Under the pieces are notes generated by a model that was not told where the DNA came from, did not search any database, and saw only the letters and a program-made list of their open reading frames with translations. 64,000 nucleotides of DNA, from NCBI GenBank assembly GCA_018669975.1, contig JABHSK010000001.1, positions 24,394 through 88,393 of the forward strand, given 5' to 3'. The translations under genes were made by a program, and so were the position numbers. Positions 3,622 through 62,717 of the stretch are shown here, in pieces. Origin of the DNA: Candidatus Parcubacteria bacterium (GTDB lineage Bacteria; Patescibacteriota; Patescibacteriia; UBA1558; GWA2-36-10). Position 1 is the stretch's first letter. The number at the start of each line of letters is the position of its first letter.

Positions 3622-5310
3622 TTATTCTTTGTGTGTTTTATTTACTCCAAATAAGGCTAATTTGCCTTCTAATTTTTTACTAACGATCATTCTTAAGAAA
3701 GTTCTAGTAACAGTAATGGCTGAAAACATAGACATTAGAATACCGATAGCTAAGGTAATAGCAAAACCTTTAATGATGGATGTGCCAAACCAAGCCAATA
3801 TTATACAAGTAATAATAGAGGATATATTTGAGTCACGGATAGAAGGCCAAGCTCTAGTAAAACCATTTTCTATAGATGTATGTAAGCTCTTACCATTATA
3901 AAGTTCTTCTTTAGTCCTTTCAAATATCAATATATTAGCATCTACAGCCATACCAATGGATAATATGAATCCGGCTACACCGGCTAAAGTCATGGTTACA
4001 GGAATTAATTCAAAGATTGCTAAAGTTAAAATAGTGTAAATTGCTAAAGAAATCACTGATAGCAAGCCAGGTAAACGATAGAAAGCTAACATAAATAGAG
4101 CTGCTGCAATCAGTCCAATAATACCTGCTAATAAGCTTTTTTCAACAGAAGTCTCGCCTAAAGTAGCACCAACAGTCTGTTGACTGATCAATTCAATAGG
4201 CACTGGTAAAGCACCTAGATTAAGATCTTTCACTAATTGCTTAGCTTCAGTAATATTGAAGTTGCCAGAAATTTGAGCACTACCATCTTTGATTGGCTCC
4301 TGAACTACAGGACTAGACCTAAGTAGGCCATCTAAAAATATACCAATCGGCTCACCGACATGGTCAGCAGTTAATTGAGCAAATAGTTCTTTACCGTCAT
4401 CATTAAAACGCAGTAACACCAATGGTTCTTGAGTAGTATTATCAAAACTTAATTGGGCTTTTTTAATATCTTTACCACTTAAACCAGTATCATCCCAGGT
4501 TATATTCAATAAGTCAGCGTCTGGTCTTCTGAACAAGATATGAGCTGATCGTACCTCTATGACACCTGCTTCATTTATTCTTTCGTCTACTTTTTTAATA
4601 ACATGATAACCAAATTGTGACTCAATTAATTCGGATGATATTTCACCTTTAGTTAGGTTATCAAAAATAGCTTGATCAAATTCTGGTACAAATTTACCTC
4701 TTTCAGTCCAGTCTAAATCACCCCCATTAATAGCTGAAGTAGGATCCTCACTGTATTCTTGTGCTAAAGTAGTGAAATCTTCACCAGCTAAGGCTCTCTT
4801 TAGAATTTCTTGAGCAGCCTGCTCGATTTCATCTATTACTCCGAGTTCTTCAATTTCCTCAGTAATAGGCTCACCCTGCGTCCTAAAATCTAGCATTGGA
4901 GTACGATCTATCATTGCGATAGCCTCATTGGTATCTTGAACACCTGCTAACTCAACGATAATTCGGTAATTTTCACCACTATAGTTAGTCTGAATTACTG
5001 GTTCAGACACACCGTAGGCATTAACCCTTCTTTCAATAACATCTCTAAGAGCTTCAACACCATCTTTCTTTTCCTCTCCCTCTAGGGCAGACACATCAGC
5101 TTGGTAGACCAAATGGGTGCCACCTTGTAAATCCAAACCTAAATGAATGTAAAATTTACCAAACCAATCATTGGCTGCACCTAAAAAGTTTACCCTAGGT
5201 GAAACAATTAAGATGGCAAAGATGGTCAACAAAAAAATAGTGGCAAAACTGGTTCTAATTTTCCCAGCTGTGACACGTTCTTTGTTGCTTAATTTACTGT
5301 ATTTGTTCAT
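3622..5310 (-). CDS. secD: Protein translocase subunit SecD with a parvulin (PpiC)-like domain inserted in the periplasmic P1 head.
   Basis: Conserved SecD blocks are present (LGLDLQGG, MLDFRTQ, MAVDANILIFERTKEEL, KGFAITLAIGI). Residues about 158-262 align with the PpiC signature (GEDFTTLAQEYSED...GGDLDWTERGKFVPEFDQAIF...FGYHVIKK, then SAHILF). Confidence 0.85.
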   Translation of the reverse strand: MNKYSKLSNKERVTAGKIRTSFATIFLLTIFAILIVSPRVNFLGAANDWFGKFYIHLGLDLQGGTHLVYQADVSALEGEEKKDGVEALRDVIERRVNAYGVSEPVIQTNYSGENYRIIVELAGVQDTNEAIAMIDRTPMLDFRTQGEPITEEIEELGVIDEIEQAAQEILKRALAGEDFTTLAQEYSEDPTSAINGGDLDWTERGKFVPEFDQAIFDNLTKGEISSELIESQFGYHVIKKVDERINEAGVIEVRSAHILFRRPDADLLNITWDDTGLSGKDIKKAQLSFDNTTQEPLVLLRFNDDGKELFAQLTADHVGEPIGIFLDGLLRSSPVVQEPIKDGSAQISGNFNITEAKQLVKDLNLGALPVPIELISQQTVGATLGETSVEKSLLAGIIGLIAAALFMLAFYRLPGLLSVISLAIYTILTLAIFELIPVTMTLAGVAGFILSIGMAVDANILIFERTKEELYNGKSLHTSIENGFTRAWPSIRDSNISSIITCIILAWFGTSIIKGFAITLAIGILMSMFSAITVTRTFLRMIVSKKLEGKLALFGVNKTHKE

Positions 5311-15362: not shown

Positions 15363-15436
15363 TGGCTCGGGGACAGGGGCTCGAACCCCGATTGCCTGGA
15401 CCAGAACCAGGTGTCCTACCATTAGACGATCCCCGA
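15363..15436 (-). tRNA. tRNA-Gln (anticodon CUG).
   Basis: The reverse complement folds as a cloverleaf. Acceptor stem TCGGGGA/TCCCCGA, anticodon loop TTCTGGT, T-loop GGTTCGAGCCCC, encoded CCA. Confidence 0.85.
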
Positions 15437-32144: not shown

Positions 32145-32477
32145 AAATTGACTAAGATGATCGCCTCACCTTTGGTGAGGAGGAAAGTCCGAACACCATA
32201 AAAAGGGTAGTTGGTAACGCCAACCGTCCTGAGAGAAATCGAAGGATAGGACAAGTGCAACAGAAAGTATACCGCCTGCAAAGGTAAGGGTGAAAATGTG
32301 GGGTAAGAGCCCACACGTTTATGTGGTGACACATAGAATGAGGTAAACTTCTACCTGGTGAAAGACTAAGTAGGTTTCGTAATGCTACGAAACGGGTAAG
32401 TCGCTTGAGCTTATAAGCAATTGTAAGCCTAGATAGATGATCATCCTTAGACAGAATTCGGCTTATGAGGTCAATTT
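32145..32477 (+). ncRNA. rnpB: RNase P RNA, bacterial type A.
   Basis: Universal motifs GGAGGAAAGUCCG, GGUAACGCC, AGUGCAACAGAAAG, GGUAAGGGUGAAA.GUGGGGUAAGAGCCCAC, GCUUGAGC, CCUAGAUAGAUGA and ACAGAAUUCGGCUUAU. A P1 helix forms between aaattgac and gtcaattt. Confidence 0.9.
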
Positions 32478-32571
32478 AGACCTTTTTAGATACCCAAAAA
32501 TCTGTTTGACATCAATAAATATCTATGACAATATATTTAAAAGTTATTGTACACTAAAAAAGGAGAAATAA

Positions 32572-53501: not shown

Positions 53502-54497
53502 CTACTTGCCACCCTTGCCGTTGAGGTTCATGAGCCAACCGGACCCGTCGGGCATGATATTGGCCGGCAAGGAGCCGTTCCACTTCTCAGCCGCGATCTT
53601 CTGGGCCTCGGCCTGGATCTTCTGGATATCCAGCTCACGGACCATGATGGCCGCGTCCTGTGCCCGAGCAAACTCCTCGGCCGCTTTACGTGAAGCAGTA
53701 GCCGTGGCTACGGTCTGCTTGTTGAGCTCATCCTGTGCCAGCTTATTCTGAGCTGCAGTCTGGACGCTGAGTTCAGCCAGGAACCGGTTGTTGATACCGG
53801 TCTGGATCTCCTCGTCCTCGTAGATCAGCCCCTCGGCGTAACCAAGGTTGTCGATAGTAATACCGGTCTCCTTGAAATGCTCACGAGTAGCGGCGTAGAC
53901 GCGATCAAAGATCTCGGCTTTGGCACCGCGACCGTCAACCAACTCCAGGGAGCCGAACTCCCGAGAGAGAATCGAGGTGACGTAACCACGCACGTTCTCA
54001 TCGACCACAGCCGACAAAGGCTTACCGGCGTACCAGTACAAGAAAGTCGCCGCGTCGTCCTCACGAACGAAGGAGGTGATATTGACGCCGATGGCGAAAC
54101 CGATGGACTCCTTGGACTCGACATGGATGGCTTCGTTGGCATTCGAGGTGCCGCTGGCGCTATCCTGCGTCCATTCACGAGTAACGGGTTTGCGATCAAC
54201 CTTGATCACGCGCACCGTCGGAATCCATTCAAAATTCCAACTGCGACGACCATTCTTCCTCTTACGCAGAGGAATAGTGACTCGCTTGGCCGCGACCTTG
54301 GCGTCCTCCAGGAAATCCACGGACATGAACTTGCCCTGGGTATCCATGTTGGCGCCTTCCATCGGCACCACGAAAGCAGTTTCGTTGGTGTCGATCTCTT
54401 CGACCACTTCGACTTCGGCCGGACCCCTGCAGCCAGTAAAGGCAAACATGGCGATCAGGCCAACGACGATCAGAGACAGGTACTTGAAATTCTTCAT
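53502..54497 (-). CDS. SPFH/band-7 (stomatin/flotillin-like) domain lipoprotein; high-GC gene.
   Basis: Lipobox AFTGC. The SPFH core (GFAIGVNITSFVRED...VRGYVTSILSREFG...ETGITIDNLGY) is followed by an Ala/Gln-rich coiled coil. SD GAGGAGG. About 57% GC. Confidence 0.6.
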   Translation of the reverse strand: MKNFKYLSLIVVGLIAMFAFTGCRGPAEVEVVEEIDTNETAFVVPMEGANMDTQGKFMSVDFLEDAKVAAKRVTIPLRKRKNGRRSWNFEWIPTVRVIKVDRKPVTREWTQDSASGTSNANEAIHVESKESIGFAIGVNITSFVREDDAATFLYWYAGKPLSAVVDENVRGYVTSILSREFGSLELVDGRGAKAEIFDRVYAATREHFKETGITIDNLGYAEGLIYEDEEIQTGINNRFLAELSVQTAAQNKLAQDELNKQTVATATASRKAAEEFARAQDAAIMVRELDIQKIQAEAQKIAAEKWNGSLPANIMPDGSGWLMNLNGKGGK

Positions 54498-54587
54498 TCT
54501 GTTTCCTCCTCAAGAGGTTCTGAAAGGTTTGAAACGGTTTTGAAACACGATATTCGTGAACAAATATACTAGCAGAGAAAAATAGAA

Positions 54588-54887
54588 CTACTCGTTACTA
54601 TCCGGGGCACTGTTGTACCTACCCAACTTGACCACATACGGAATCCAGGTCAAACCCAGCAGAATAAATCCTGCCCAGTTGATCATGCGTGGGATGGCAT
54701 GCAGTGCGACAGCGCGGCCGGCGACATAGTCGACATCACTGTTGTTGAGCTGCTTGACCGCAACTCCGGCCTCGATGGGACCCTGCGAAGCATTGTAGAC
54801 CTGAATGGTCACAATCCACAGAATCACAAAGATAATTGTGAAAATCATCCTGGCCTTGAAATTGGGCCTACCGATCATCTTACTCAT
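54588..54887 (-). CDS. Small two-TM membrane protein co-transcribed upstream of the SPFH gene (NfeD-position partner).
   Basis: The start is placed at the internal ATG (MSKMIGRP...) because SD AAGGAGG lies 6 nt upstream. Two hydrophobic helices. Confidence 0.5.
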   Translation of the reverse strand: MSKMIGRPNFKARMIFTIIFVILWIVTIQVYNASQGPIEAGVAVKQLNNSDVDYVAGRAVALHAIPRMINWAGFILLGLTWIPYVVKLGRYNSAPDSNE

Positions 54888-55102
54888 GTTTTGCCTCCTT
54901 AATGGCAAATGGTGATTGATTGGGAAACAACGATTTTACCGAATCTATTTTAAATCCTTGCGTTCAAGGCAGTAAAAAAATATACACGATAATAACAGAC
55001 TACATTAGCATAATACCTTGATTTTGTCAAGTATTAAGCTAAAAACCTTAAAAAAATAGGTAAATAAAAAGGACTCCAATTTGGAGCCCCTAATCTGATA
55101 GT

Positions 55103-55741
55103 TTAGCTATCAAGACTAAAGCTTTTCTCTGGCATACCAGGACAAGTGCCTCGCGGACCGAGAGTAGCCATAAAAACAAGGTTGCTCTGCCAGCTAATAT
55201 CACCCAATTCGGAAGCTATTTCCATAGCCATGGGAAGCAAATCAGCCTCTGGCAACACTGACAAAGTGATATGTGGTACAAACGTATCCATGGTCAATGG
55301 ATTACCCCATTTGGCCAAGTTTTTACGCCGAGCAGCACCTATATCAACTTCGCCTGTTAGACAGCCGGAATGTAAGCCAGTGATAAAATCCTGACGAAGT
55401 TCATTGATATCTTTGACCAGTTGGCGATGAATTCCCAACAACGCATCAGTCATATTTACATTCCAAAAAATAGCATTACCAGGATACTCACTGACACCAC
55501 TAAGGGTTAATTCGAGAGGCTTTTTACCCCAAAATGTTCTTTCCATGACAGAATCAACCGCAACTATATTTTCTACTGGAAAAGCAAATTGATGAATAGT
55601 AATGTGCGGAATAGCACTTTCCTCACTGAGGACTAAATCACTACCATGGGCAGCAATTTTTCTACTAACATCAATGGCTATTTGCCTGATTTCTTCAGGC
55701 GGAATAATCACTATGTTGCAGCTTAAAACTCTGGGAAACAT
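55103..55741 (-). CDS. 2H-phosphoesterase superfamily protein (LigT / 2'-5' RNA ligase / cyclic-phosphodiesterase-like).
   Basis: Two H-x-T/S-x motifs (HITIHQ and HITLSV) spaced as in LigT; SD GAGGTG. Confidence 0.6.
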   Translation of the reverse strand: MFPRVLSCNIVIIPPEEIRQIAIDVSRKIAAHGSDLVLSEESAIPHITIHQFAFPVENIVAVDSVMERTFWGKKPLELTLSGVSEYPGNAIFWNVNMTDALLGIHRQLVKDINELRQDFITGLHSGCLTGEVDIGAARRKNLAKWGNPLTMDTFVPHITLSVLPEADLLPMAMEIASELGDISWQSNLVFMATLGPRGTCPGMPEKSFSLDS

Positions 55742-55895
55742 GAGCCACCTCTTTCTTGTAGGGTTTAAGGTTCAGAAAAAATACATATTAAATTAACATA
55801 AAATACTTATTTATGTCAATGAGCATTGACAAATCATGAAACATGTGTTAGTTTCAAAATGTTTACAATTGAATATCTAACAATGAAGCAATGAA

Positions 55896-56007
55896 CGACT
55901 GTCTATATTTGGACGCTTGGATAGTCGGGAGCTAGTAGCGTAACCGGCATTGGCAATAAATTTAATTTGCTTATTTTGTCGGAGACGCCTACCTTAGGTG
56001 TTTTTTT
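55896..56007 (+). ncRNA. Structured RNA element, copy 1: conserved 51-nt core flanked by a covarying 5-bp helix, then an intrinsic terminator. Candidate riboswitch or sRNA.
   Basis: The core at 55901-55951 is identical to copy 2 except for a 5-nt block. Helix cgact(55896-900)/agtcg(55923-27). Terminator hairpin 55984-56002 plus T7. Confidence 0.5.
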
Positions 56008-56051
56008 AGTATAAGTACCTTATAAAATAAGTAAAATGATGAGGTGTTGAA

Positions 56052-56160
56052 CCATAGTCTATATTTGGACGCTTGGATTATGGGGAGCTAGTAGCGTAAC
56101 CGGCATTAAGCTGGTTTTAGGTACAAACAAAACACCTCATTTTTCGAAGGTGTTTTTTGA
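56052..56160 (+). ncRNA. Structured RNA element, copy 2: same core plus a P1/terminator switching platform.
   Basis: Core 56057-56107. Helix ccata(56052-56)/tatgg(56079-83). The stretch gaggtgtt (56041-48) is complementary to aacacctc (56131-38). That same stretch also pairs with aggtgtt (56148-54), which is followed by a T-run. Confidence 0.5.
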
Positions 56161-56184
56161 TAGTCACATCATGGAGGTGCAACA

Positions 56185-56625
56185 TTGGCTAGAATCGCTG
56201 TTTTTGATACGACCTATACTTCTATACGAACCATCTATTATGCCCTAGAGGGTGAAGGACATCAAGTAGTAACTAATGTTTTCCCAGAAAAAGTTTATGG
56301 GAAATTAGTTATGAAAATGGTAACTGACCCCCTTAGTTTGGTGACTAAAATTTTGACCCCCAGACTGGTTGATGGACAAGTCGTAAGACCTATCCCTGAT
56401 GTTTTCATCATAGATTTTCTTAATCTAGATGGTGAAAAAATAGCCAGCATACTCAAGCAAATACATAGTACTAGATCTGTACCAGTAATTGCCTTGAGTC
56501 ATAAAGGGAAAAATATAGATCGTCAAAAGTTACTTCAACTCTACGGCACTCACTATATTCCTAAACCATTTAATGTGTGGAATGTGGTTGATCACGTGGA
56601 AACTTTCCTAGGTGTCACTTGCTAG
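56185..56625 (+). CDS. Standalone receiver (REC/CheY-like) domain protein.
   Basis: TTG start with SD GGAGGTG. Beta3 acceptor Asp (VFIIDF), beta4 Ser (IALSH), beta5 Lys (IPKPF). Confidence 0.5.
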   Translation: MARIAVFDTTYTSIRTIYYALEGEGHQVVTNVFPEKVYGKLVMKMVTDPLSLVTKILTPRLVDGQVVRPIPDVFIIDFLNLDGEKIASILKQIHSTRSVPVIALSHKGKNIDRQKLLQLYGTHYIPKPFNVWNVVDHVETFLGVTC

Positions 56626-56667
56626 TGGCTGGGGGGGGGAACTAAAACCTAGGAAAGGAGGCACATA

Positions 56668-56733
56668 ATGGAAATTATGACGATCGTCATGGGTCTGTCC
56701 CTGATCGATCTCTTTTGGTGGCTGAGGAAATAA
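56668..56733 (+). CDS. 21-aa hydrophobic peptide MEIMTIVMGLSLIDLFWWLRK (type I toxin-like or small membrane peptide).
   Basis: Strong SD AAGGAGG 7 nt upstream. Single TM-length hydrophobic stretch with a basic C-terminus. A paralog lies at 56934-56999. Confidence 0.45.
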   Translation: MEIMTIVMGLSLIDLFWWLRK

Positions 56734-56835
56734 TCTCAGCAAATCGTTAATGATGTCTAGAATAGAAGTTGAAACTATCAATATCTGAGTAGCATCATTC
56801 GGATGCTACCAATCGCCTGTCTATCGACAGGCCGA

Positions 56836-56878
56836 GGGACTCGTCACTGCATAATTCCCCCCAGTGCATACGAGTCCC
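56836..56878 (+). other. Conserved compound hairpin downstream of peptide 1 (copy A).
   Basis: gggactcgtcactgc...cagtgcatacgagtccc. A 13-nt block GACTCGTCACTGC is shared with copy B. Confidence 0.5.
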
Positions 56879-56933
56879 TTTCGATATTTACTGGAGGATG
56901 CTAATCGCTTATATTGAAAGTGAGGTGAAAACT

Positions 56934-56999
56934 ATGGCTTTCGAGGTTATTCTCATCGCTATTGGCGTTGCGGATATCTTCTGGTGGCTGCGTAAGTAG
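56934..56999 (+). CDS. 21-aa hydrophobic peptide MAFEVILIAIGVADIFWWLRK (paralog).
   Basis: SD GAGGTGA. Shares the C-terminal D[LI]FWWLRK with the first peptide. Followed by a conserved hairpin plus T7 terminator. Confidence 0.45.
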   Translation: MAFEVILIAIGVADIFWWLRK

Positions 57000-57068
57000 C
57001 TACCAAGATAGCAACTAGTATCTTCAATTAATATTTATACAGATAGTGCCGCCCGGGTACTATTGTCA

Positions 57069-57117
57069 GAGACTCGTCACTGCCCATTTCCTCCAGTGCA
57101 TACGGGTCTCTTTTTTT
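57069..57117 (+). terminator. Conserved compound hairpin (copy B) plus T7: intrinsic terminator after peptide 2.
   Basis: gagactcgtcactgc...cagtgcatacgggtctc followed by ttttttt. Confidence 0.6.
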
Positions 57118-57156
57118 AAAACAAAAAATCGGATATTACTACCCGATTTTTATAAA

Positions 57157-57921
57157 TTATTTTTCAATCACTGAACCCGAACCAGATATCTTTTGAATAA
57201 CTGTGGCCTTACCACTGTATTCCACATCACCACTACCTTCTATATTTACATCCAAATCCATTTCTGCGACTACCTTAACACTTCCTGAGCCTTCGATATT
57301 TACAGACGTACTATCTGTAGCTAGAGCAGCAGCCTTGATATCACCTGAACCTTCGATATTAGTAGAATGCCTAATAGTTGAACCCTTGAGATTCATCTCT
57401 CCAGAACCAGCGATTGTTGAATCCAATTCTTTTACATCTAGATCTAGCTCAACATAACCTGAACCGTTAATACGTAAATCTAAATTCTCGGTAGTCAGTG
57501 GAGTTTCACCAATTATACTACCAGAACCATTGATAGTTAAATTATCTATATCTGGAATCGTTACATAAACATTAACTGACACAAAACTAATTGTTAGAGG
57601 TTTAAGAGAAACTCTCAGGGTACCATCCCTGACCTCAACTATTAATTTCTCCATAATCTTTTCGTCAGCATCCACCTTTACTAACTGCTCTTCTCCTTGA
57701 GATATGTATAGATTACCAGCTACATCAAAATCAACTCTAGAAAATTCTTCTAATTCAAATTCTTCTGATATTATCTTACCGGTGCCAAAGAAATTCTCCT
57801 TAGAAAATATATCCTTAACTTCATCTTCTAGGCCATTTCTACCAATATACAAACCAACAAAAAATACAGCCACTACCACTATCAACCATAGTAAACCGCT
57901 TCCTTTTTGATTTTTTAGCAT
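57157..57921 (-). CDS. Membrane-anchored GIN-domain (DUF2807, putative adhesin head) repeat protein.
   Basis: N-terminal TM helix. The motif I-x-GSG-x-V/I repeats about eight times (INGSGSI, INGSGYV, IAGSGEM, IEGSGDI, IEGSGSV, IEGSGDV, ISGSGSV). Confidence 0.55.
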   Translation of the reverse strand: MLKNQKGSGLLWLIVVVAVFFVGLYIGRNGLEDEVKDIFSKENFFGTGKIISEEFELEEFSRVDFDVAGNLYISQGEEQLVKVDADEKIMEKLIVEVRDGTLRVSLKPLTISFVSVNVYVTIPDIDNLTINGSGSIIGETPLTTENLDLRINGSGYVELDLDVKELDSTIAGSGEMNLKGSTIRHSTNIEGSGDIKAAALATDSTSVNIEGSGSVKVVAEMDLDVNIEGSGDVEYSGKATVIQKISGSGSVIEK

Positions 57922-58065
57922 AGTTTAAAACATTAATTTATTAATACATGTATTTTAACATTTTTTTGACATAAATTAAAATACTTAGATAATATTGACT
58001 AAATTAATAAATCATACTAATATGCATGGTCGTATTTGGAACCTTAAAACTCAAGGAGGAAAAAG

Positions 58066-58704
58066 ATGAGTCCTGAGAGGATATCAGTAATAATTCAACA
58101 AAAGATTGAAGCCTATGATCCCAGTGGAAATCTTGACCACACTGCTCGCTTGATTCTTGCCCTAATGTCTCTTAGACACTCCCGAACTAAATTACATGTC
58201 GAACGTGTAGCCCTGATGGCTGAAGAAGTGGCCTCTGATATGGGTAAAGATGCTCGGCAAGCTTTTTTTAGCGGACTACTGCATGACATCGGCAAGCTAG
58301 TCTTGCCCTACCACCTATTTGCTGATCAATCAATCACTGATGATGAATTTTCTGAAATTACCAGCCACGCTGCAGCCGGACACAAAGTCCTAGAACCATT
58401 CCATCTCTATACCGCGCTAGTAGCTGGCATTCATCATCGTGCTCAAGACCGTGGCTACGGTCTAACACTAACAGACTTCCCAGAAGACATGCCTTTGTCG
58501 CAGGTCAAGAAAGTTCTCAATATTGCCGTCATAGTCGGCGTCTGTGATTTTATTGATGCCTGGCAAAACCGTGGTGACACCCTCCGTGATGGACGTAAAA
58601 AAACAGACCTTGATTTACGCAGTCTGCTTCTGGAAAAATATCCCGATGATAGCCAAGTTGTTGACTTGGCCCTAGTAGCTGCGGACAAAGTCCGTACCAT
58701 CTGA
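58066..58704 (+). CDS. HD-domain phosphohydrolase, HD-GYP-like (divergent: HDIGK ... HHRAQDRGYG).
   Basis: HD motif LLHDIGKLVLPYHL and a second metal-binding block GIHHRAQDRGYG, which resembles the HHExxDGxGYP block of c-di-GMP HD-GYP phosphodiesterases. SD AAGGAGG. About 50% GC. Confidence 0.5.
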   Translation: MSPERISVIIQQKIEAYDPSGNLDHTARLILALMSLRHSRTKLHVERVALMAEEVASDMGKDARQAFFSGLLHDIGKLVLPYHLFADQSITDDEFSEITSHAAAGHKVLEPFHLYTALVAGIHHRAQDRGYGLTLTDFPEDMPLSQVKKVLNIAVIVGVCDFIDAWQNRGDTLRDGRKKTDLDLRSLLLEKYPDDSQVVDLALVAADKVRTI

Positions 58705-58710
58705 TATATG

Positions 58711-58738
58711 GACCTACTCTCTGAGTGGGTCTTTTTTT
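58711..58738 (+). terminator. Intrinsic terminator of the HD-GYP-like gene (gacctactc tct gagtgggtc plus T7).
   Basis: 9-bp stem with one G·U pair and a U-tract. Confidence 0.65.
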
Positions 58739-58863
58739 ATAAAATAAAAAGGACTGACAAGGTCAGTCCCGTATAATCGCTAATCACCAAAAATTTTCAC
58801 ATAAGGTCTTATTGTCAATTAAATAAAAAATAAAAAACTGAGCTTTAGGCTCAGATTTTTTGA

Positions 58864-58873
58864 TGGCTCGGGG
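58864..58873 (-). other. Orphan 10-nt copy of the tRNA-Gln 3' end (…CCCCGAGCCA), a possible recombination or attachment-site remnant.
   Basis: tggctcgggg is identical to the 3'-terminal 10 nt of both tRNA-Gln genes. No complete cloverleaf can be drawn. Confidence 0.35.
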
Positions 58874-58975
58874 CGCTGGACTATTGTCCAGCATCTTAGG
58901 TCGCTCCTATCGGATCATTGTTTGTGGTTTTGAACCAAAAATAAAAACCCGAACAAAAGTTCAGATTCTTATTTT

Positions 58976-59049
58976 TGGCTCGGGGACAGGGGCTCGAACC
59001 CCGATTGCCTGGACCAAAACCAGGTGTCCTACCATTAGACGATCCCCGA
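58976..59049 (-). tRNA. tRNA-Gln (anticodon UUG). Identical to the copy at 15363-15436 except for anticodon position 34.
   Basis: Same 74-nt sequence with ccaGaacc changed to ccaAaacc on the plus strand, giving anticodon loop TTTTGGT. Confidence 0.85.
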
Positions 59050-59158
59050 ACAAGGAAAATACGCAACAATAATACTATATTTTACTACTTATGTCAACTA
59101 TATAAAATTAAATTTCCCCCGCTGGATTAGAACCACACGAGGGAAATATTTACGGAGC

Positions 59159-59434
59159 CTAGCCCCGAAGTTGGCGCCTTGCCCTCTCCAGATCAGCTGC
59201 CCGCTGCGCCCTTAATTCGTCCCTTCTAAGGTCGAATTGCTCCCTCGAAGGAAGGAGGTGCGTAGTGGGTAGCTCTGGAAGAGAACGACACGCTTCCGGA
59301 AGAATAGGCCTTGACCCTCTTGGGTCAGGAAGCACTCTACGCACTTCCGGGAGCCTAGGAGACTTTTCTGACAAGCCTCTAAGCTGCTGCCTAGCTTCCG
59401 AAAAACTAGCAATGAACCTTGACCACCAAGCCAT
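59159..59434 (-). CDS. Putative 91-aa Arg/Leu/Pro-rich ORF in a GC-rich spacer. A real protein and a non-coding transcript cannot be told apart.
   Basis: Upstream TTGACA, 17-nt spacer, TTATAT promoter. SD AAAGGAGG 4 nt before the ATG. Downstream hairpin (atttccc/gggaaat). The encoded sequence is low-complexity. Confidence 0.25.
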   Translation of the reverse strand: MAWWSRFIASFSEARQQLRGLSEKSPRLPEVRRVLPDPRGSRPILPEACRSLPELPTTHLLPSREQFDLRRDELRAQRAADLERARRQLRG

Positions 59435-59600
59435 GTTGCCTCCTTTAAATATTTATCAACTACTTGGGAATTTGATCAGCATCATATATAAACATATTGC
59501 CTAATCTTTGTCAATGGTTATTGCCTTTTAAAATTACTGTGTTAAGCTGTAAAATGTTAGTCCCCAACCGACAATGTACTTTAAAAGAAAGGATTAAGTT

Positions 59601-60947
59601 ATGTGGAAAAAAGGCGATGTATTAGTGGAGGGTAAAACCAAAAGAATCTTCGATGCAGAAGCTACTCACACCGATACCAAGCACTCGGGTCATCCTGTAA
59701 TAGTAGAAAGTAAGCCGGATATCACGGCTTTCGATGATCCCACAAAAACCAAACAAATTGAGGCCAAGGCAGCCTTTGCCACCTCTACAACCTGCCGAGT
59801 GTTTGAACTATTAAAAGCTGCTGGTATTCCAGTAGCTTACTATCAGCAAGTCTCCCCTACTGAATTTCTAGCTGAACAATGTACTATGATTCCGCTAGAA
59901 ATGGTGGCTAGGCGATATGCAGTAGGTAGTTATCTCAAACGTCATCCAGAACTAGTTTGTAAAGAAGACGAGCAACCGCATCGTTTTCACAAATTAGTTT
60001 GTGAATTTTTCCTGAAAACTACCCGCGGTGAATTGATTCTGCCAGATGGAACTCGCCTAGTCGAAGGTCTAAAACCAGAGGCTGGTGAAGAAGATCCTTT
60101 TATCGCCAATCCAATGGCTATGAACTGGAAACTTTCTCATCCTAAGTTACCCGCCTGGGTAGCAGAAGCCGATCTAAATATGAGCGTCAATCCCAATGCC
60201 ATTCTTCCTGGAACTCTAGGTAGCTCCAAAGAGCGCACCCACCAGATAGTAGATTACCTACAGCGTGTCTTCTTAGTTCTAGAAGGTGCCTGGACTACTC
60301 TGGGTCTACGATTGATCGATATGAAGATCGAATTCGGCATAGACTCTGCTGGTCAACTACGTGTAGCTGATGTCATTGACAATGACAGTTGGCGTCTACG
60401 CACCCATGACTGGGAAGAACTCAGTAAGCAGGCTTTCCGCGATGGCGAAAGCTTGGATGAGGTCGAGCTCAAATACGGAACAGTGGCTGGACTAGTTGAA
60501 AGATTCCGGATTCCTAACCAGGCACTTATCTGCTGGCGTGGATCACTCAGTGATGATATCAAGGGTCCATCAACATCTACCATTCCTGGTATCACTATCG
60601 ATTATGTAACCATGTCTGGACACAAGTCCACTCAAGCATGCCTAATCGAACTGGAAAGAATCATGGGTAAATACCCTGACGGTGGCGTCATAGTGGTCAA
60701 GGTCGGTCGAAGTAATGGTCTAGGACCAATCCTAGCCGCTCACACCACCTGGCCTGTCATCGCCGTCCCCGCTACTATGGATTCTTTTCCTGCTGACGCT
60801 TGGAGTAGCATCCGCATGCCCTCTCATGTTCCTTTAGCAACAGTTTGGCCAGAAAAAAATGCCATCGAATTGGCTCTCAATATTCTGGCACGAACAAACC
60901 CATTGGTATATGCATTGCGCCAACGGGAAATTGAAGATCTAGATTAA
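59601..60947 (+). CDS. Bifunctional PurC-PurE fusion (SAICAR synthetase N-terminal, AIR carboxylase-like C-terminal; PAICS-like architecture).
   Basis: N-terminus: GKTKRIFD, MIPLEMVARRYAVGSYLKR, LIDMKIEFGID (PurC). C-terminus: GSLSDD, SGHKST, GLGPILAAHTTWPVIAVP (PurE-like). About 50% GC. Confidence 0.7.
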   Translation: MWKKGDVLVEGKTKRIFDAEATHTDTKHSGHPVIVESKPDITAFDDPTKTKQIEAKAAFATSTTCRVFELLKAAGIPVAYYQQVSPTEFLAEQCTMIPLEMVARRYAVGSYLKRHPELVCKEDEQPHRFHKLVCEFFLKTTRGELILPDGTRLVEGLKPEAGEEDPFIANPMAMNWKLSHPKLPAWVAEADLNMSVNPNAILPGTLGSSKERTHQIVDYLQRVFLVLEGAWTTLGLRLIDMKIEFGIDSAGQLRVADVIDNDSWRLRTHDWEELSKQAFRDGESLDEVELKYGTVAGLVERFRIPNQALICWRGSLSDDIKGPSTSTIPGITIDYVTMSGHKSTQACLIELERIMGKYPDGGVIVVKVGRSNGLGPILAAHTTWPVIAVPATMDSFPADAWSSIRMPSHVPLATVWPEKNAIELALNILARTNPLVYALRQREIEDLD

Positions 60948-61106
60948 ATAGGTCATCAAGACCATCCCCTCGGGGATGGGTTTTTATTAATAAAAAACCC
61001 GCCAAGGAAAGGACCTGCTTTGAAAAGAGCCGAGTATCCGAACTAGTGTCCGGCGGTCTTTCATTAGCAATGATCACAGTCTCAGCGGGCAATCCCTATA
61101 AAGGAG

Positions 61107-62717
61107 CTAATTTTTTATACTAGCCTTAATAAAGCTTTTAAATAATGGATGTGGTCTCAGTGGCCTAGATTTGAATTCTGGATGGAATTGAGAAGCTACA
61201 AAATATGGATGATCTTTTAACTCAATAACCTCTACCAAACGTTTGTCTGGTGATAAACCAGCAAATCTCATACCACCTGCTTCCAGTTGCTCACGATATT
61301 CATTATTAAACTCATACCTGTGTCTATGACGCTCTGAAATCTTTGGAGTACCATACGCTTTATAACTTAGCGAATCCTTGGATAAAACGCAAGGATAGGC
61401 TCCCAACCTCAAAGTACCACCTTTATCTTCATCGGCAGTATGACCAGGTAATATATGAATGACTGGATTGGTAGTTTTACTATCAAATTCTGTAGAATTG
61501 GCGTCTTCGGTGCCTAAAATGTGTCGGGCAAACTCTATGGTCGCAACTTGCATACCCAAACAAAGACCTAGGTAAGGCAATTTGTGTTCTCGGCAGTATT
61601 TAGCAGCCATAATTTTACCCTCTACTCCTCGATAACCAAAACCACCGGGCACTACTATACCAGAAACTTTTTTGAATTTGTTTATTTCTTTACGATCTTT
61701 CTTTTCCAATTTACTAGCATGGATCCAAGTTAAGTCTAATTTAACTCCATTATGATAGCAGGCGGACTTGAGTGCCTCCACTACACTAATATAGGCATCA
61801 ATATTCTCATTGTATTTACCAACCAAGCCGATGGATAATTTCTTTTTGGTAGTTTTAATTCTTTTGACGTAGGCCTCCCACTTATCGAGCTTTGGCTTTC
61901 TCTTGGGTAACTTCATTTTGTCAAAAAGAATGTCAGAAATCTTGTACTTTTTTTCAAAATATAACGGCACCTCATAAATACTTTTAACAGTCAACGCTGG
62001 AATAACTGATCGTTCATCAAGATCGGCAAACATAGCGATCTTATGAAGATCCTCTTTTTTAACCGCCTTATCACTTCTTGCTAAAATTATATCTGGCTGA
62101 ATACCACGTCGATGCAATTCTCTAACTGACATCTGAGTTGGTTTAGTCTTTAGCTCCTGTGATGCTTTAAGAAATGGTAATAAAGTTAAATGAATAAATA
62201 ATACATTCTCATGTCCCATCTCATTGTGAAACTGACGTAAAGCTTCTAAAAATGGCTCACCTTCAATATCACCGACTGTACCCCCTATCTCTGCTAACAA
62301 AAAATCAGCCTTTGATTCATCAGCTGCTTTCCTAATATAATCTTTTATTTCGTTAGTAATATGAGGGACAATTTGAATAGTTTTCCCTAAATAAACTCCA
62401 CTTCTTTCACCTTGCAATACTTTTTCATAGACACGTCCAGTGGTCAGATTAGATAGTTTGGATAGGTTACTGTCAATAAATCTTTCGTAGTGACCTAAAT
62501 CTAGATCTGTTTCTGTACCATCATCGGTTACAAATACTTCACCATGTTGAAATGGGCTCATAGTACCAGGATCGATATTTAAATACGGATCTAGCTTTGC
62601 ACTAAAAACTGAGTATCCTGCTGAACGCAAAATAGCTCCGATCGATGCGGATGCTATACCCTTTCCCAAACCGGAGCAAACACCGCCGGTAATAAAAATG
62701 TATTTCGTTTTGGACAT
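61107..62717 (-). CDS. pyrG: CTP synthase.
   Basis: YIFITGGVCSGLGKG N-terminus and a glutamine amidotransferase C-terminus (GLCLGMQ). Confidence 0.9.
   Translation of the reverse strand: MSKTKYIFITGGVCSGLGKGIASASIGAILRSAGYSVFSAKLDPYLNIDPGTMSPFQHGEVFVTDDGTETDLDLGHYERFIDSNLSKLSNLTTGRVYEKVLQGERSGVYLGKTIQIVPHITNEIKDYIRKAADESKADFLLAEIGGTVGDIEGEPFLEALRQFHNEMGHENVLFIHLTLLPFLKASQELKTKPTQMSVRELHRRGIQPDIILARSDKAVKKEDLHKIAMFADLDERSVIPALTVKSIYEVPLYFEKKYKISDILFDKMKLPKRKPKLDKWEAYVKRIKTTKKKLSIGLVGKYNENIDAYISVVEALKSACYHNGVKLDLTWIHASKLEKKDRKEINKFKKVSGIVVPGGFGYRGVEGKIMAAKYCREHKLPYLGLCLGMQVATIEFARHILGTEDANSTEFDSKTTNPVIHILPGHTADEDKGGTLRLGAYPCVLSKDSLSYKAYGTPKISERHRHRYEFNNEYREQLEAGGMRFAGLSPDKRLVEVIELKDHPYFVASQFHPEFKSRPLRPHPLFKSFIKASIKN

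What the first reader, a model, noticed from the sequence alone, without database searches (positions are those of the whole stretch)
56626..57120. Two paralogous 21-codon hydrophobic ORFs (…FWWLRK) with strong RBS, each followed by a conserved compound hairpin
The ORFs MEIMTIVMGLSLIDLFWWLRK and MAFEVILIAIGVADIFWWLRK have consensus SD sequences and would form single TM helices with a basic C-terminus. This is the architecture of type I toxins (Ibs, Ldr, Fst, TisB-like) and regulatory membrane micropeptides. They share the C-terminal D[LI]FWWLRK. Each is followed by a conserved imperfect hairpin sharing GACTCGTCACTGC…CAGTGCATACG. The second ends in T7 as a terminator. The first is preceded by two more perfect hairpins. 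The tandem duplication and conserved 3' RNA structure suggest a selected unit, such as a toxin/antitoxin-RNA pair or a small-protein regulator, rather than chance ORFs.
Basis: seen in the sequence. Interest (0 to 1): 0.7.

Follow-up and report, generated by a model that had tools for sequence, protein, structure and literature searches.

The report
Riboswitch-controlled FWWLRK membrane micropeptide cassettes
Two 21-codon genes at the end of a c-di-GMP-riboswitch-controlled operon in a Parcubacteria genome belong to an undescribed, strongly conserved family of about 20-residue hydrophobic peptides, shared by candidate-phyla-radiation bacteria and many uncultured phages; here each gene sits in its own covarying RNA fold, and what the peptides do is still unknown.

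Summary
ORF1 (56668-56733) and ORF2 (56934-56999) have strong Shine-Dalgarno sites and end in D[LI]FWWLRK. A degenerate DNA pattern for D-x-FWWLRK-stop recovered about 55 distinct peptides of 18-25 aa from CPR genomes, metagenomes and 15 viral contigs. All six Arg and all six Leu codons are used, so selection acts on the peptide.

The ORFs are the last cistrons of an operon that starts with two tandem c-di-GMP-II riboswitches (predicted OFF switches), followed by a stand-alone receiver-like gene. This synteny holds in at least 13 CPR loci.

The "compound hairpin" is a covarying terminator-like stem. Its apical loop (UCCCCCCAG / UCCUCCAGU) pairs with a G-rich pseudo-SD element upstream of each true SD (CUGGGGGGA / ACUGGAGGA). 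This closes each mini-cistron into a loop.

No antisense RNA gene, no independent promoter and no match to a known toxin family were found. Phage copies lack the RNA cassette and have no fixed neighbour.

Best reading: tightly gated membrane micropeptides that act autonomously. The architecture resembles type I toxins, but this is not a demonstrated type I toxin-antitoxin system. The peptide family and the RNA cassette both appear undescribed.

The parts
55875..55958 (+). c-di-GMP-II riboswitch aptamer 1
   Evidence: Rfam RF01786, 67.3 bits against a gathering score of 53.5.
55981..56007 (+). Intrinsic terminator after aptamer 1 (GGAGACGCCUA-CCU-UAGGUGUUUUUUU)
   Evidence: Fold. The same arrangement occurs in L007, L009 and L010.
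56031..56114 (+). c-di-GMP-II riboswitch aptamer 2
   Evidence: Rfam RF01786, 62.4 bits.
56131..56158 (+). Intrinsic terminator after aptamer 2. Its 5' arm AACACCUCAU is complementary to aptamer nucleotides 56039-56048 (AUGAGGUGUU), which would act as an antiterminator, so an OFF switch is predicted.
   Evidence: The same 8-10 nt complementarity occurs at the gene-proximal aptamer of L007, L009, L010, L012, L015 and L025.
56185..56625 (+). Stand-alone receiver-like (CheY-like) protein, 146 aa, TTG start
   Evidence: PF00072 scores 24.9 bits, below its cut-off of 30.2. The family is narrow, about 25 clusters, and every cluster that carries an organism name is Patescibacteria. Alignment.
56628..56641 (+). 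Unit 1 5' pairing element (GCUGGGGGGGGGAA, a pseudo-SD). It pairs with the P2 loop of unit 1.
56668..56733 (+). Micropeptide gene 1, MEIMTIVMGLSLIDLFWWLRK (SD at 56655-56661)
56722..56739 (+). Small hairpin enclosing the stop codon of ORF1 (CUGAG-GAAAUAAU-CUCAG)
   Evidence: Read directly from the sequence. Recurs in L007, L010 and the L009 remnant. No statistics were computed.
56789..56809 (+). Unit 1 hairpin P1 (GUAGCAUC-AUUCG-GAUGCUAC), followed by the CCAA linker
   Evidence: Compensatory variants are visible by eye across units (AGCACC/GGUGCU, AGUAUC/GAUACU, GUCACUC/GAGUGAC).
56815..56832 (+). Extra hairpin, lineage-specific insertion (GCCUGUC-UAUC-GACAGGC)
   Evidence: Absent in L007, L010 and L015. 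Different insertions sit at the same site in L012 and L078.
56836..56878 (+). Its apical loop at 56855-56865 (UUCCCCCCAGU) pairs with 56628-56638. The U-tract is weak, so it is probably a leaky terminator.
   Evidence: Stem covariation. Loop pairing.
56890..56898 (+). Unit 2 5' pairing element (ACUGGAGGA, a pseudo-SD)
56934..56999 (+). Micropeptide gene 2, MAFEVILIAIGVADIFWWLRK (SD at 56920-56927). The 33-aa in-frame extension from 56898 is not conserved: it is out of frame in L007.
56982..57005 (+). 10-bp hairpin enclosing the last codons and the stop codon of ORF2 (UGGUGGCUGC-GUAA-GUAGCUACCA)
   Evidence: MFE fold.
57043..57063 (+). Unit 2 hairpin P1
57068..57117 (+). Unit 2 hairpin P2 plus U7, the operon terminator. 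The loop at 57089-57097 (UCCUCCAGU) pairs with 56890-56898.
57124..57151 (.). Second, bidirectional terminator shared with the convergent DUF2807 gene (57157-57921, minus strand)

Best explanation
The region is the 3' end of a c-di-GMP-controlled operon in a Candidatus Parcubacteria (CPR) genome. The order is: two complete c-di-GMP-II riboswitches in tandem, each an aptamer with its own terminator; a stand-alone receiver-like protein; then two paralogous micropeptide cassettes.

Shown:
- Both 21-codon ORFs belong to a widespread, unannotated family of 18-25-residue peptides. The N-terminal half is variable and hydrophobic. The C-terminus is nearly invariant: [small]-x-[small]-[LV]-[IAL]-D-[LI]-F-W-W-L-R-K.
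- This family is under amino-acid-level purifying selection.
- In the CPR lineage each cistron lies in an RNA cassette: 5' G-rich pseudo-SD element, true SD, ORF, stop-codon hairpin, P1, CCAA linker, P2. The apical loop of P2 pairs with the 5' element, and the pairing covaries between units.

Inferred:
- c-di-GMP binding lets the terminators form, so the operon is expressed when c-di-GMP is low.
- The first P2 terminates leakily and the second fully, which would set the ratio of the two peptides.
- The 5'-3' closure stabilises and/or throttles each short cistron, as fold-back pairing does in hok/AapA1-type mRNAs and in icaR mRNA.
- The peptides insert into the membrane after translation as single helices, with the WW-LRK end at the cytoplasmic interface.
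- They act there autonomously through the invariant C-terminal face, either by self-assembly that perturbs the membrane or by binding a universally conserved membrane component. They are not obligate partners of the receiver protein, because phages and non-CPR bacteria carry the peptide without it.

My confidence by step: architecture and translation about 0.9; membrane location about 0.7; OFF switch about 0.6; role of the RNA closure about 0.4; autonomous membrane action about 0.5.
For: Riboswitches and terminators:
- RF01786 hits lie above the gathering score in the window and upstream of the receiver gene in the other CPR loci that have upstream sequence.
- Each aptamer is followed by a terminator, and the gene-proximal aptamer has a conserved antiterminator complementarity.

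Operon structure:
- ORF1 starts 43 nt after the receiver stop codon, and no terminator lies between them.
- The receiver-peptide synteny holds in 13 loci and across receiver subfamilies that are only 24-36% identical.

Peptide family:
- About 55 distinct peptides were recovered.
- All six Arg and all six Leu codons are used in the motif.
- In the loci found through the receiver protein, differences in the last 8 codons fall 74/10/129 on codon positions 1/2/3, with 110 synonymous against 48 non-synonymous codon differences.
- The nine C-terminal residues stay identical while the neighbouring receiver protein drops to 62% identity.
- Positions -9 to -16, which the search pattern did not constrain, are almost purely hydrophobic or small.

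RNA cassette:
- The P2 stem has compensatory changes at 12 of 13 pairs.
- In the loop-to-5' helix the eight core pairs form in 11 of 11 units, and 8 of 13 pairs show double changes. The covariation score is 0.33, against 0.205 for shuffles (0 of 500 reach it) and at most 0.158 for slid registers.
- Different units use GGGGGG/CCCCCC, GGAGGA/UCCUCC, GGGAAC/GUUCCC, GGCUGGAGG/CCUCUGGCC and GGAGAG/CUCUCC.
- Per-unit shuffle p values are 0.000-0.006 when the 5' region is shuffled and 0.001-0.114 when the loop is shuffled.

Autonomy of the peptide:
- It occurs in 15 IMG/VR contigs, next to terminase, DNA polymerase, a DnaD-like loader or a repressor, with no fixed neighbour.
- It also follows PDZ-GAF-PP2C proteins in high-GC bacteria.
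Against: - There is no transcript, ribosome-profiling or proteomic evidence. Translation is inferred from SD sites and substitution patterns only.
- No dedicated transmembrane predictor was run. A hydrophobic stretch of about 17 residues containing an Asp is short for a bilayer span.
- Two of four receiver loci sampled later without reference to the peptide (L100, L102) lack the peptide and keep only hairpin remnants. L009 has lost ORF1. So the peptide is dispensable for the receiver operon.
- The 5'-3' pairing is absent from 30 phage and other units. It is a lineage-specific regulatory layer, not a property of the peptide family.
- Membrane-perturbing peptides usually do not need an invariant 8-residue motif. 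That degree of conservation fits a specific partner better.
- The invariance of the motif in pattern-derived loci is partly ascertainment. Variants exist: D to Y, F to W, L to I, K to R.
- The OFF-switch call rests on sequence complementarity. For aptamer 1 no antiterminator was identified.
Confidence: 0.5

Rival explanations
1. Classical type I toxin-antitoxin modules. Each peptide is a membrane-depolarising toxin, its mRNA is held inert by the 5'-3' fold-back, and an antisense or divergent small RNA neutralises it.
For: - The peptides are tiny, hydrophobic and end in a basic tail.
- From memory, the tail resembles E. coli LdrD (...SWWRNRK).
- Tandem paralogues are common: 2 here, up to 4 in L069.
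- The family occurs on phages and is sporadically lost.
- The covarying 5'-3' long-distance pairing is a hallmark of hok and AapA1 mRNAs (my knowledge of those systems).
- The operon is tightly gated by two terminators in series.
Against: - No antitoxin RNA was found. The minus-strand promoter-like hits fall on sequence that differs in L007, L010 and L015.
- The cistrons are not independent transcription units. They are the tail of a deeply conserved riboswitch-receiver operon.
- CPR genome contigs matched at one place each in the genome scan, which is unlike multi-copy type I loci.
- No Pfam toxin model matches, even at E up to 10.
- The SD sites are strong and well spaced, and no conserved SD-sequestering helix was found.
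- Identity of the motif across phyla is atypical for type I toxins.
Confidence: 0.17
2. Specific small-protein regulator. The peptide is non-toxic and binds a particular conserved membrane or signalling protein, tuning its activity as MgrB, AcrZ, KdpF or Prli42 do. In CPR bacteria it would be the membrane arm of the receiver pathway, and phages would carry it to hijack the same target.
For: - The C-terminal face is invariant across CPR bacteria, high-GC bacteria and phages.
- The peptide lies next to signalling proteins in two unrelated cellular contexts: a receiver domain and PDZ-GAF-PP2C proteins.
- The receiver-peptide synteny is deeply conserved.
Against: - Phage copies have no consistent partner gene.
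- The receiver family is restricted to CPR bacteria, so it cannot be the general target.
- The peptide has been lost from some receiver operons.
- No target could be proposed from the sequence data.
Confidence: 0.22
3. Regulatory nascent (arrest or leader) peptide. The conserved C-terminal ...DxFWWLRK-stop acts inside the ribosome exit tunnel, as TnaC or SpeFL do, and stalling at the stop codon remodels the downstream hairpins.
For: - Conservation is concentrated in the last 9 residues before the stop, and the N-terminal length varies.
- A hairpin encloses the stop codon in many CPR units.
- Some phage copies sit directly upstream of the small-terminase gene.
- The ribosome is a universal target, which would explain conservation across phyla.
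Against: - In the window and in most CPR loci nothing lies downstream to regulate. The unit ends in a terminator and faces a convergent gene.
- The N-terminal half is always hydrophobic, which an arrest peptide does not need.
- Many phage copies are followed at once by a terminator-like hairpin.
Confidence: 0.06
4. Secreted short hydrophobic signalling peptide (SHP/XIP-like pheromone). The mature form would be the C-terminal 8 residues starting at the conserved Asp.
For: - From memory, the peptides resemble streptococcal ComS/XIP (..MGLDWWSL) and SHP peptides (mature DI[IL]IIVGG): 17-25 aa, hydrophobic, with an Asp followed by a C-terminal octapeptide.
- The gene lies next to regulatory genes.
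Against: - No Rgg/ComR-type receptor lies nearby.
- The proposed mature peptide is identical across phyla and phages, the opposite of pheromone specificity.
- A basic RK C-terminus is typical of membrane anchoring.
Confidence: 0.03
5. The ORFs are not translated, and the conserved element is purely RNA.
For: The region is highly structured and part of it covaries.
Against: - The motif is encoded by every synonymous Arg and Leu codon.
- Third-position and synonymous changes dominate.
- SD sites and start codons are conserved in about 55 genes with GC content from 33% to 70%.
- Phage copies keep the peptide but not the RNA cassette.
Confidence: 0.02

Closest known systems
Type I toxins and their fold-back mRNAs (Hok/Sok, Ldr/Rdl, Ibs/Sib, Fst, AapA1/IsoA1)
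   Same: A hydrophobic peptide of 18-35 aa with a basic or aromatic tail. Tandem paralogues. Presence on phages and other mobile DNA. In the CPR cassettes, an mRNA closed by a 5'-3' long-distance pairing.
   Different: No antisense RNA gene was detected. The units are co-transcribed behind a riboswitch and a receiver gene. No sequence match to any toxin family. The C-terminal motif is conserved across phyla. The closing helix involves a pseudo-SD upstream of the real SD, not the real SD itself.
   Same: A C-rich motif in the 3' UTR pairs with a G-rich SD-like element at the 5' end of the same mRNA.
   Different: Here the C-rich motif is the apical loop of the terminator hairpin. Its target lies 25-40 nt upstream of the functional SD. 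The unit is a 21-codon cistron repeated in tandem.
c-di-GMP-II riboswitch regulons (RF01786)
   Same: The operon leader holds two bona fide RF01786 aptamers, each with an intrinsic terminator.
   Different: The regulated genes, a stand-alone atypical receiver plus micropeptides in CPR bacteria, did not appear together with this riboswitch in the paper library (searches returned no paper). The design is tandem and predicted OFF.
Small membrane regulators (MgrB, AcrZ, KdpF, MgtS, Prli42, SpoVM)
   Same: Unannotated single-helix proteins under 50 aa encoded in or beside operons of signalling or transport genes.
   Different: At 18-25 aa these are shorter than the six examples named above. They have no sequence similarity to them, no identified partner, and are shared with phages.
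Streptococcal SHP and ComS/XIP pheromone precursors
   Same: Size, hydrophobicity, and a conserved Asp followed by a C-terminal octapeptide containing WW.
   Different: No Rgg/ComR receptor nearby. The C-terminus is invariant rather than system-specific, and it ends in Arg-Lys.

Membership tests
Type I toxin-antitoxin system | Small (<60 aa) hydrophobic toxin ORF | tested here: met
   Both ORFs are 21 aa. Positions -9 to -16 across the family are hydrophobic or small.
Type I toxin-antitoxin system | Overlapping or adjacent antisense RNA antitoxin with its own promoter | tested here: inconclusive
   Three weak minus-strand promoter-like matches (9 of 12 positions). Their hexamers fall on sequence that is not conserved in L007, L010 and L015. 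No transcript data are available.
Type I toxin-antitoxin system | Autonomous locus with its own promoter | tested here: not met
   ORF1 starts 43 nt after the receiver stop with no terminator between them. The riboswitch-receiver-peptide order is conserved in at least 13 loci.
Type I toxin-antitoxin system | Sequence membership in a described toxin family (Hok, Ldr, Fst, Ibs, TisB and others) | tested here: not met
   No Pfam, NCBIfam or PHROG hit for the peptides, even at permissive E-value limits (10 for Pfam and NCBIfam, 1 for PHROGs).
Type I toxin-antitoxin system | Toxicity on overexpression and rescue by the RNA | not testable with these tools
   This needs an experiment.
c-di-GMP-II riboswitch (RF01786) | Covariance-model score above Rfam's gathering threshold | tested here: met
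   67.3 and 62.4 bits against 53.5. Homologous loci score 59.7-76.2 bits.
c-di-GMP-II riboswitch (RF01786) | Expression platform coupled to the aptamer | tested here: met
   A terminator follows each aptamer. For aptamer 2 the aptamer and terminator share an antiterminator complementarity, conserved in 7 loci. Ligand response was not tested.
Response-regulator receiver domain (PF00072) | Pfam score above the gathering threshold | tested here: not met
   24.9 bits against 30.2, and only the C-terminal half aligns.
Response-regulator receiver domain (PF00072) | Acidic pocket, phospho-acceptor Asp, Ser/Thr and Lys-Pro | tested here: inconclusive
   The window protein keeps D8, the acceptor-position Asp (FIIDF), Ser and Lys-Pro. 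It has only one N-terminal acidic residue and an insertion of about 30 aa. Sister subfamilies have Glu at the acceptor position.
Rgg/ComR short hydrophobic peptide pheromones | Adjacent Rgg/ComR-type receptor gene, and a mature C-terminus that differs between systems | tested here: not met
   The neighbours are a receiver, a PP2C protein or phage genes. The C-terminus is invariant.
Ribosome-arrest or leader peptides (TnaC, SpeFL) | A downstream cistron on the same transcript whose expression the peptide controls | tested here: not met
   The unit ends in P2-U7 plus a second terminator and faces a convergent gene.
Any described structured RNA family (Rfam 15) | Match of the P1/P2 cassette to a curated model | tested here: not met
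   Nothing at the gathering score in the window. Nothing at E up to 1 in 55780-57200 other than the two riboswitches and one sub-threshold hit on the opposite strand.

The most novel reading that the evidence does not exclude
The FWWLRK peptides are a universal, self-sufficient membrane effector. One possibility is a minimal channel or viroporin-like oligomer: Asp(-8) and Trp(-4) lie one helical turn apart, as His and Trp do in the HxxxW gate of influenza M2 (comparison from memory). Another is an inhibitor of a membrane machine common to all bacteria. Phages would use the peptide to manipulate hosts. Episymbiotic CPR bacteria would have placed it under second-messenger control, with each cistron carrying a new kind of self-closing mRNA cassette. 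If so, this would be the first micropeptide output of c-di-GMP signalling and the first conserved small-protein family linking CPR bacteria and their phages.
Probability: 0.15. Interest if true: 0.85.

Novelty: new variant of a known kind. Interest (0 to 1): 0.68.

Why it matters
- Genes this short are skipped by gene callers. Among 1.84 billion representative proteins only four hits appeared, all short ORFs of 29-39 aa, and three of them clearly in-frame-extended gene calls. The family is therefore absent from annotation, although it is among the most strongly conserved coding sequences in these CPR loci and occurs in many uncultured phages.
- It gives c-di-GMP-II riboswitches in Patescibacteria a concrete and unexpected output: an atypical receiver protein plus membrane micropeptides.
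- It offers a compact, covariation-supported example of an mRNA whose terminator loop pairs with its own 5' end, which is easy to test by compensatory mutation.
- It provides one short, invariant peptide that can be synthesised or expressed to ask what conserved membrane function phages and CPR bacteria both act on.

Tried and rejected
- Trp-attenuator leader peptide (WW codons followed by a terminator): rejected. There is no downstream gene, and the whole peptide is conserved, not only the Trp codons.
- The 33-aa in-frame extension of ORF2 starting at 56898: rejected as the real start. A 4-nt deletion puts it out of frame in L007. Its 'SD-ATG' is in fact the 5' pairing element.
- The 57-aa antisense ORF at 56608-56781: not supported. 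It has a TTG start and no SD, and it stays partly open only because it mirrors the conserved sense frame.
- The hairpin as a dispersed REP-like repeat: rejected. There are only two copies in 64 kb.
- Known protein families: Pfam, NCBIfam and PHROGs gave nothing for the peptides.
- Cultured phages and plasmids: tblastn gave only chance-level hits.
- Literature: no paper contains 'FWWLRK', and none links the c-di-GMP-II riboswitch with Patescibacteria or CPR.
- The 5'-3' pairing as a general trait of the family: rejected. It is absent in 30 phage and other units.
- SD sequestration by the D-L-F codons, seen in the MFE fold of unit 1: not conserved in L007, so dropped.
- The MAFFT alignment of P1 was out of register between subfamilies. 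P1 covariation is therefore reported by eye only, and no covariance model was built.
Full report
**1. The observation**

The sequence and the mechanical ORF list show two small ORFs.
- ORF1 is 56668-56733, MEIMTIVMGLSLIDLFWWLRK, with AAGGAGG ending 6 nt before the ATG.
- ORF2 is 56934-56999, MAFEVILIAIGVADIFWWLRK, with GUGAGGUG ending 6 nt before the ATG.

GACTCGTCACTGC occurs only twice in the 64-kb window, once after each ORF. The two units align end to end at 73% mean column identity. The two perfect hairpins before the first compound hairpin are at 56789-56809 and 56815-56832. The T7 run after the second compound hairpin is at 57111-57117. Each unit folds much better than dinucleotide shuffles (z = -4.1 and -5.5).

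**2.

An Rfam scan of the window finds two c-di-GMP-II riboswitch aptamers, at 55875-55958 and 56031-56114 (67.3 and 62.4 bits; gathering score 53.5). Each is followed by an intrinsic terminator, at 55981-56007 and 56131-56158.

Next comes a 146-aa ORF at 56185-56625. It looks like a stand-alone receiver domain: PF00072 scores 24.9 bits, below its cut-off, and only the C-terminal half matches. ORF1 starts 43 nt after its stop codon, with no terminator between them. The two mini-ORFs are therefore the last cistrons of a riboswitch-led operon. The operon ends at P2-U7 and a second, bidirectional terminator (57124-57151), facing a convergent DUF2807 gene.

The exact protein cluster of the receiver-like gene contains MBT6690788.1 from a Candidatus Parcubacteria bacterium. 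The window is therefore from a CPR/Patescibacteria genome.

**3. Are the peptides real genes?**

The receiver-like protein has few relatives: 6 clusters by single-sequence search and 25 by profile search. Every cluster that carries an organism name is Patescibacteria.

I fetched contigs for the first six clusters without reference to the peptide. Every locus has one or two ...D[LI]FWWLRK ORFs with a GGAGG-type SD downstream of the receiver gene, although receiver identity falls to 62%.

I then scanned with a degenerate DNA pattern for D-x-F-W-W-L-R-K-stop. By my own estimate it carries about 41 bits, so roughly 0.5 chance matches are expected per 1e12 positions. It hit:
- 12 stretches in one-genome-per-species contigs, mostly Patescibacteria MAGs (Komeilibacteria, Roizmanbacteria, Parcubacteria) and one 'Fibrobacteraceae' MAG;
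- 57 metagenome stretches;
- 15 IMG/VR viral contigs.

A handful are chance hits with no start codon (L019, L033, L041, L066, L073), as expected. The remainder give about 55 distinct peptides of 18-25 aa, each with an SD and a hydrophobic N-terminal half.

In the loci found through the receiver protein, differences in the last eight codons fall 74/10/129 on codon positions 1/2/3. There are 110 synonymous against 48 non-synonymous codon differences.

Positions upstream of the motif, which the pattern did not constrain, are [LMI]-[GA]-[LIF]-[ASG]-[LV]-[IAL]. Selection therefore acts on a hydrophobic peptide, not on an RNA sequence.

Because the pattern demanded the motif, its invariance in pattern-derived loci is partly ascertainment. 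Paralogues and receiver-anchored loci show the real range: D to Y, F to W, L to I, K to R.

No Pfam, NCBIfam or PHROG model matches the peptides. No cultured phage or plasmid record carries them. No paper in the library contains FWWLRK. An exhaustive HMMER search of 1.84 billion representative proteins returned only four hits, all ORFs of 29-39 aa, three of them clearly in-frame-extended calls of such mini-ORFs. The motif is therefore not the tail of a larger protein family, and the family has escaped annotation because of its size.

**4. Three genomic contexts**

(A) CPR bacteria, 13 loci. A riboswitch or riboswitches are detected wherever enough upstream sequence is held. They are followed by the receiver-like gene and then one or two peptide cassettes. 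The receiver subfamilies involved are only 24-36% identical to the window protein, and several have Glu in place of the phospho-acceptor Asp. The association is therefore old.

(B) High-GC uncultured bacteria (L017/L032, L018, L022). The peptide follows an 866-969-aa PDZ-GAF-SpoIIE/PP2C phosphatase in L017/L032 and L022. A homologous protein lies upstream in L018.

(C) Phage contigs. The peptide lies beside an HTH protein (possibly the small terminase subunit) and the large terminase, a DNA polymerase, a DnaD-like loader or a repressor, with no constant neighbour. One phage has four tandem paralogues.

Four further receiver loci were sampled without reference to the peptide.
- Two carry peptides: L101, MHYEMSLALIYLFWWLRK; and L103, which has two.
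- Two (L100, L102) carry only hairpin remnants.
- The three of these four loci that include sequence upstream of the receiver gene (L100, L101, L102) still have c-di-GMP-II riboswitches there.

The riboswitch-receiver pair is therefore the core of the operon. The peptide cassette is an old but dispensable passenger that is duplicated and lost. L009 has lost ORF1 but keeps its hairpin.

**5. The RNA cassette**

In context A each cistron is followed by three elements:
- a small hairpin that encloses the stop codon;
- hairpin P1 and a CCAA(C) linker;

RNAalifold on 15 units supports the P2 stem, with compensatory changes at 12 of 13 pairs. P1 shows compensatory variants by eye, but MAFFT mis-registers it, so I give no statistics for it.

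The new finding is that the apical loop of P2 is complementary to a G-rich, SD-like element 25-40 nt upstream of the real SD of the same unit, and the two sites change together:
- CUGGGGGGA / UCCCCCCAG (window unit 1, L007, L010, L021, L024);
- ACUGGAGGA / UCCUCCAGU (window unit 2, L007, L009);
- ACUGGGGG / CCCCCAGU (L012, L015);
- CAACUGGGGGG / CCCCCCAGUUG (L078);
- AUAGCUGGGAAC / GUUCCCAGUUAU (L021 unit 2);
- AAGGCUGGAGG / CCUCUGGCCUU (L016);
- ACUGGAGAG / CUCUCCAGU (L103).

I tested this on an anchored, gap-free alignment of the two segments, a concatenation I built myself. The eight core pairs form in 11 of 11 distinct units. Eight of 13 pairs show changes on both sides. The covariation score is 0.33, against 0.205 for shuffles (0 of 500 reach it) and at most 0.158 for slid registers. 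Per-unit shuffle tests give p = 0.000-0.006 when the 5' region is shuffled and 0.001-0.114 when the loop is shuffled.

As a negative control, 30 phage and other units show only 3-8-nt matches. None has p below 0.02, and all but two have p at or above 0.1. The closure therefore belongs to the CPR cassette, not to the peptide family. Rfam has no model for it.

**6. How it most likely works**

Shown: the architecture, protein-level selection, P2 covariation and the loop-to-5' pairing.

Inferred:
- (a) At the gene-proximal aptamer, the 5' strand AUGAGGUGUU (56039-56048) can pair with the 5' arm of the terminator (56131-56140). The same 8-10-nt complementarity occurs in six other loci. Ligand binding should therefore free the terminator, giving an OFF switch, and the operon would be expressed at low c-di-GMP. 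For aptamer 1 I found a terminator but no clear antiterminator.
- (b) P2 of unit 1 has a poor U-tract and P2 of unit 2 has U7, so termination is probably partial and then complete.
- (c) The closure of each mini-cistron probably protects it or throttles it, by analogy with hok/AapA1 fold-back pairing and the icaR 5'-3' UTR pairing (analogies from my knowledge of those systems). Its target is a pseudo-SD, which could be a stand-by or decoy ribosome site.
- (d) The peptides probably insert as single helices with WW-LRK at the cytoplasmic interface. The peptide occurs without the receiver in phages and other bacteria, so it presumably acts autonomously. The invariant face argues for defined self-assembly or a universal partner.

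I cannot separate a pore or toxin-like action from a specific regulatory action with sequence data alone.

**7. Comparison with known systems**

The leader is a genuine member of RF01786. The peptides work like type I toxins or small membrane regulators in outline, but they fail three membership features of type I toxin-antitoxin systems:
- no antisense RNA gene was found;
- the units are not autonomous loci;
- there is no match to a known toxin family.

A pheromone reading lacks a receptor and lacks variability in the mature peptide. An arrest-peptide reading lacks a downstream target. The Trp-attenuator, dispersed-repeat, antisense-ORF and extended-ORF2 readings were rejected (see Tried and rejected).

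**8. Verdict**

This is a real, selected and apparently undescribed feature: a family of FWWLRK micropeptides, here in two self-closing RNA cassettes at the end of a c-di-GMP-II riboswitch operon. It is a new variant of known kinds (small membrane peptides and fold-back mRNAs). Its biochemical function is unknown. Interest 0.68.

Noticed in passing
window 55875-56158: Two complete c-di-GMP-II riboswitches in tandem, each an aptamer with its own terminator. The tandem design recurs in L007, L009, L010, L078 and L100. Aptamers of the same class also sit downstream of the receiver operon and control the next gene in L025, L078 and L102 (above the Rfam gathering score); L100 has a similar-looking sequence by eye that did not reach the threshold. 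c-di-GMP-II riboswitches therefore appear to be used repeatedly in these small CPR genomes.
   Followed up: partly
window 56185-56625 and alignment A4: The receiver-like family carries an insertion of about 30 aa between beta2 and beta3 and has only one N-terminal acidic residue. Several subfamilies (L016, L021, L024, L025, L027, L078) have Glu at the phospho-acceptor position, so they are probably phosphorylation-independent pseudo-receivers.
   Followed up: partly
window 57157-57921 (-) and 58066-58704 (+): The neighbours are a DUF2807 'adhesin head GIN domain' protein and an HD/HD_5 (HD-GYP-like) protein. Together with the riboswitches this looks like a local c-di-GMP signalling neighbourhood.
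   Followed up: no
window 56887-56915 (+): A weak promoter-like match (TTTACT-17-TATATT) overlaps the 5' pairing element of unit 2. It is conserved in L009, but a 4-nt deletion changes the spacing in L007. If it is active, unit 2 could also be transcribed without its 5' pairing element.
   Followed up: partly
L069 (same contig as L093), oriented positions about 4784-5250: A 23.8-kb phage contig carries four tandem paralogues ending in DIWWWLRK, DIFWWIRK, DIFWWLRK and DIFWWLRR.
   Followed up: partly
L028, L049, L071 (also L094 and L098), immediately 3' of the peptide gene: AT-rich phage contigs share a different 3' element with the repeated motif GAGCGGAGCGG inside a long hairpin (for example gagcggagcggggtc...gagcggagcggaa...gacccc). 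It may be another structured RNA or a repeat.
   Followed up: no
L026 and L037, about 45 nt downstream of the peptide stop: A second small hydrophobic ORF of about 35-40 aa follows the peptide gene (in L026: MLHVLESIGIVLLIALCIFAACFVLVGWLFGRKP). The L026 contig is listed both as a Parcubacteria-group MAG contig and as an IMG/VR viral contig.
   Followed up: no
L045 7929-8134 (-): A manA RNA (RF01745, 58.4 bits) lies about 1 kb upstream of the peptide gene on a phage-like contig that also carries a terminase.
   Followed up: no
L012 (same sequence as L023), immediately after the receiver stop codon and 3' of the cassette: Extra degenerate P2-like hairpins occur without an ORF. They are probably remnants of lost cassettes. 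L009, L100 and L102 show similar remnants.
   Followed up: partly
L025 oriented about 4905-4975: A second peptide copy, MHAQIAFAVVLAVIDLFWWLRK, ends in a TGA stop, so the search pattern missed it. It is followed by a different conserved 3' hairpin type (GGGCCUN..CUACAGAUAGCCACAC..GGCCC), also seen in L027 and L100. The census therefore undercounts the family.
   Followed up: partly
window 54001-56000 and 58001-62000: GC content rises to 43-44% against about 34-35% in the rest of the window. The cause was not examined.
   Followed up: no
window 32145-32481 (+); 15363-15436 (-); 58976-59049 (-): Bacterial RNase P RNA class A and two tRNA-Gln genes (anticodons CUG and UUG).
   Followed up: no
window 57115-57200 (-): A sub-threshold L20_leader match (21.9 bits against a gathering score of 58.7; E = 0.17), most likely chance.
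   Followed up: no
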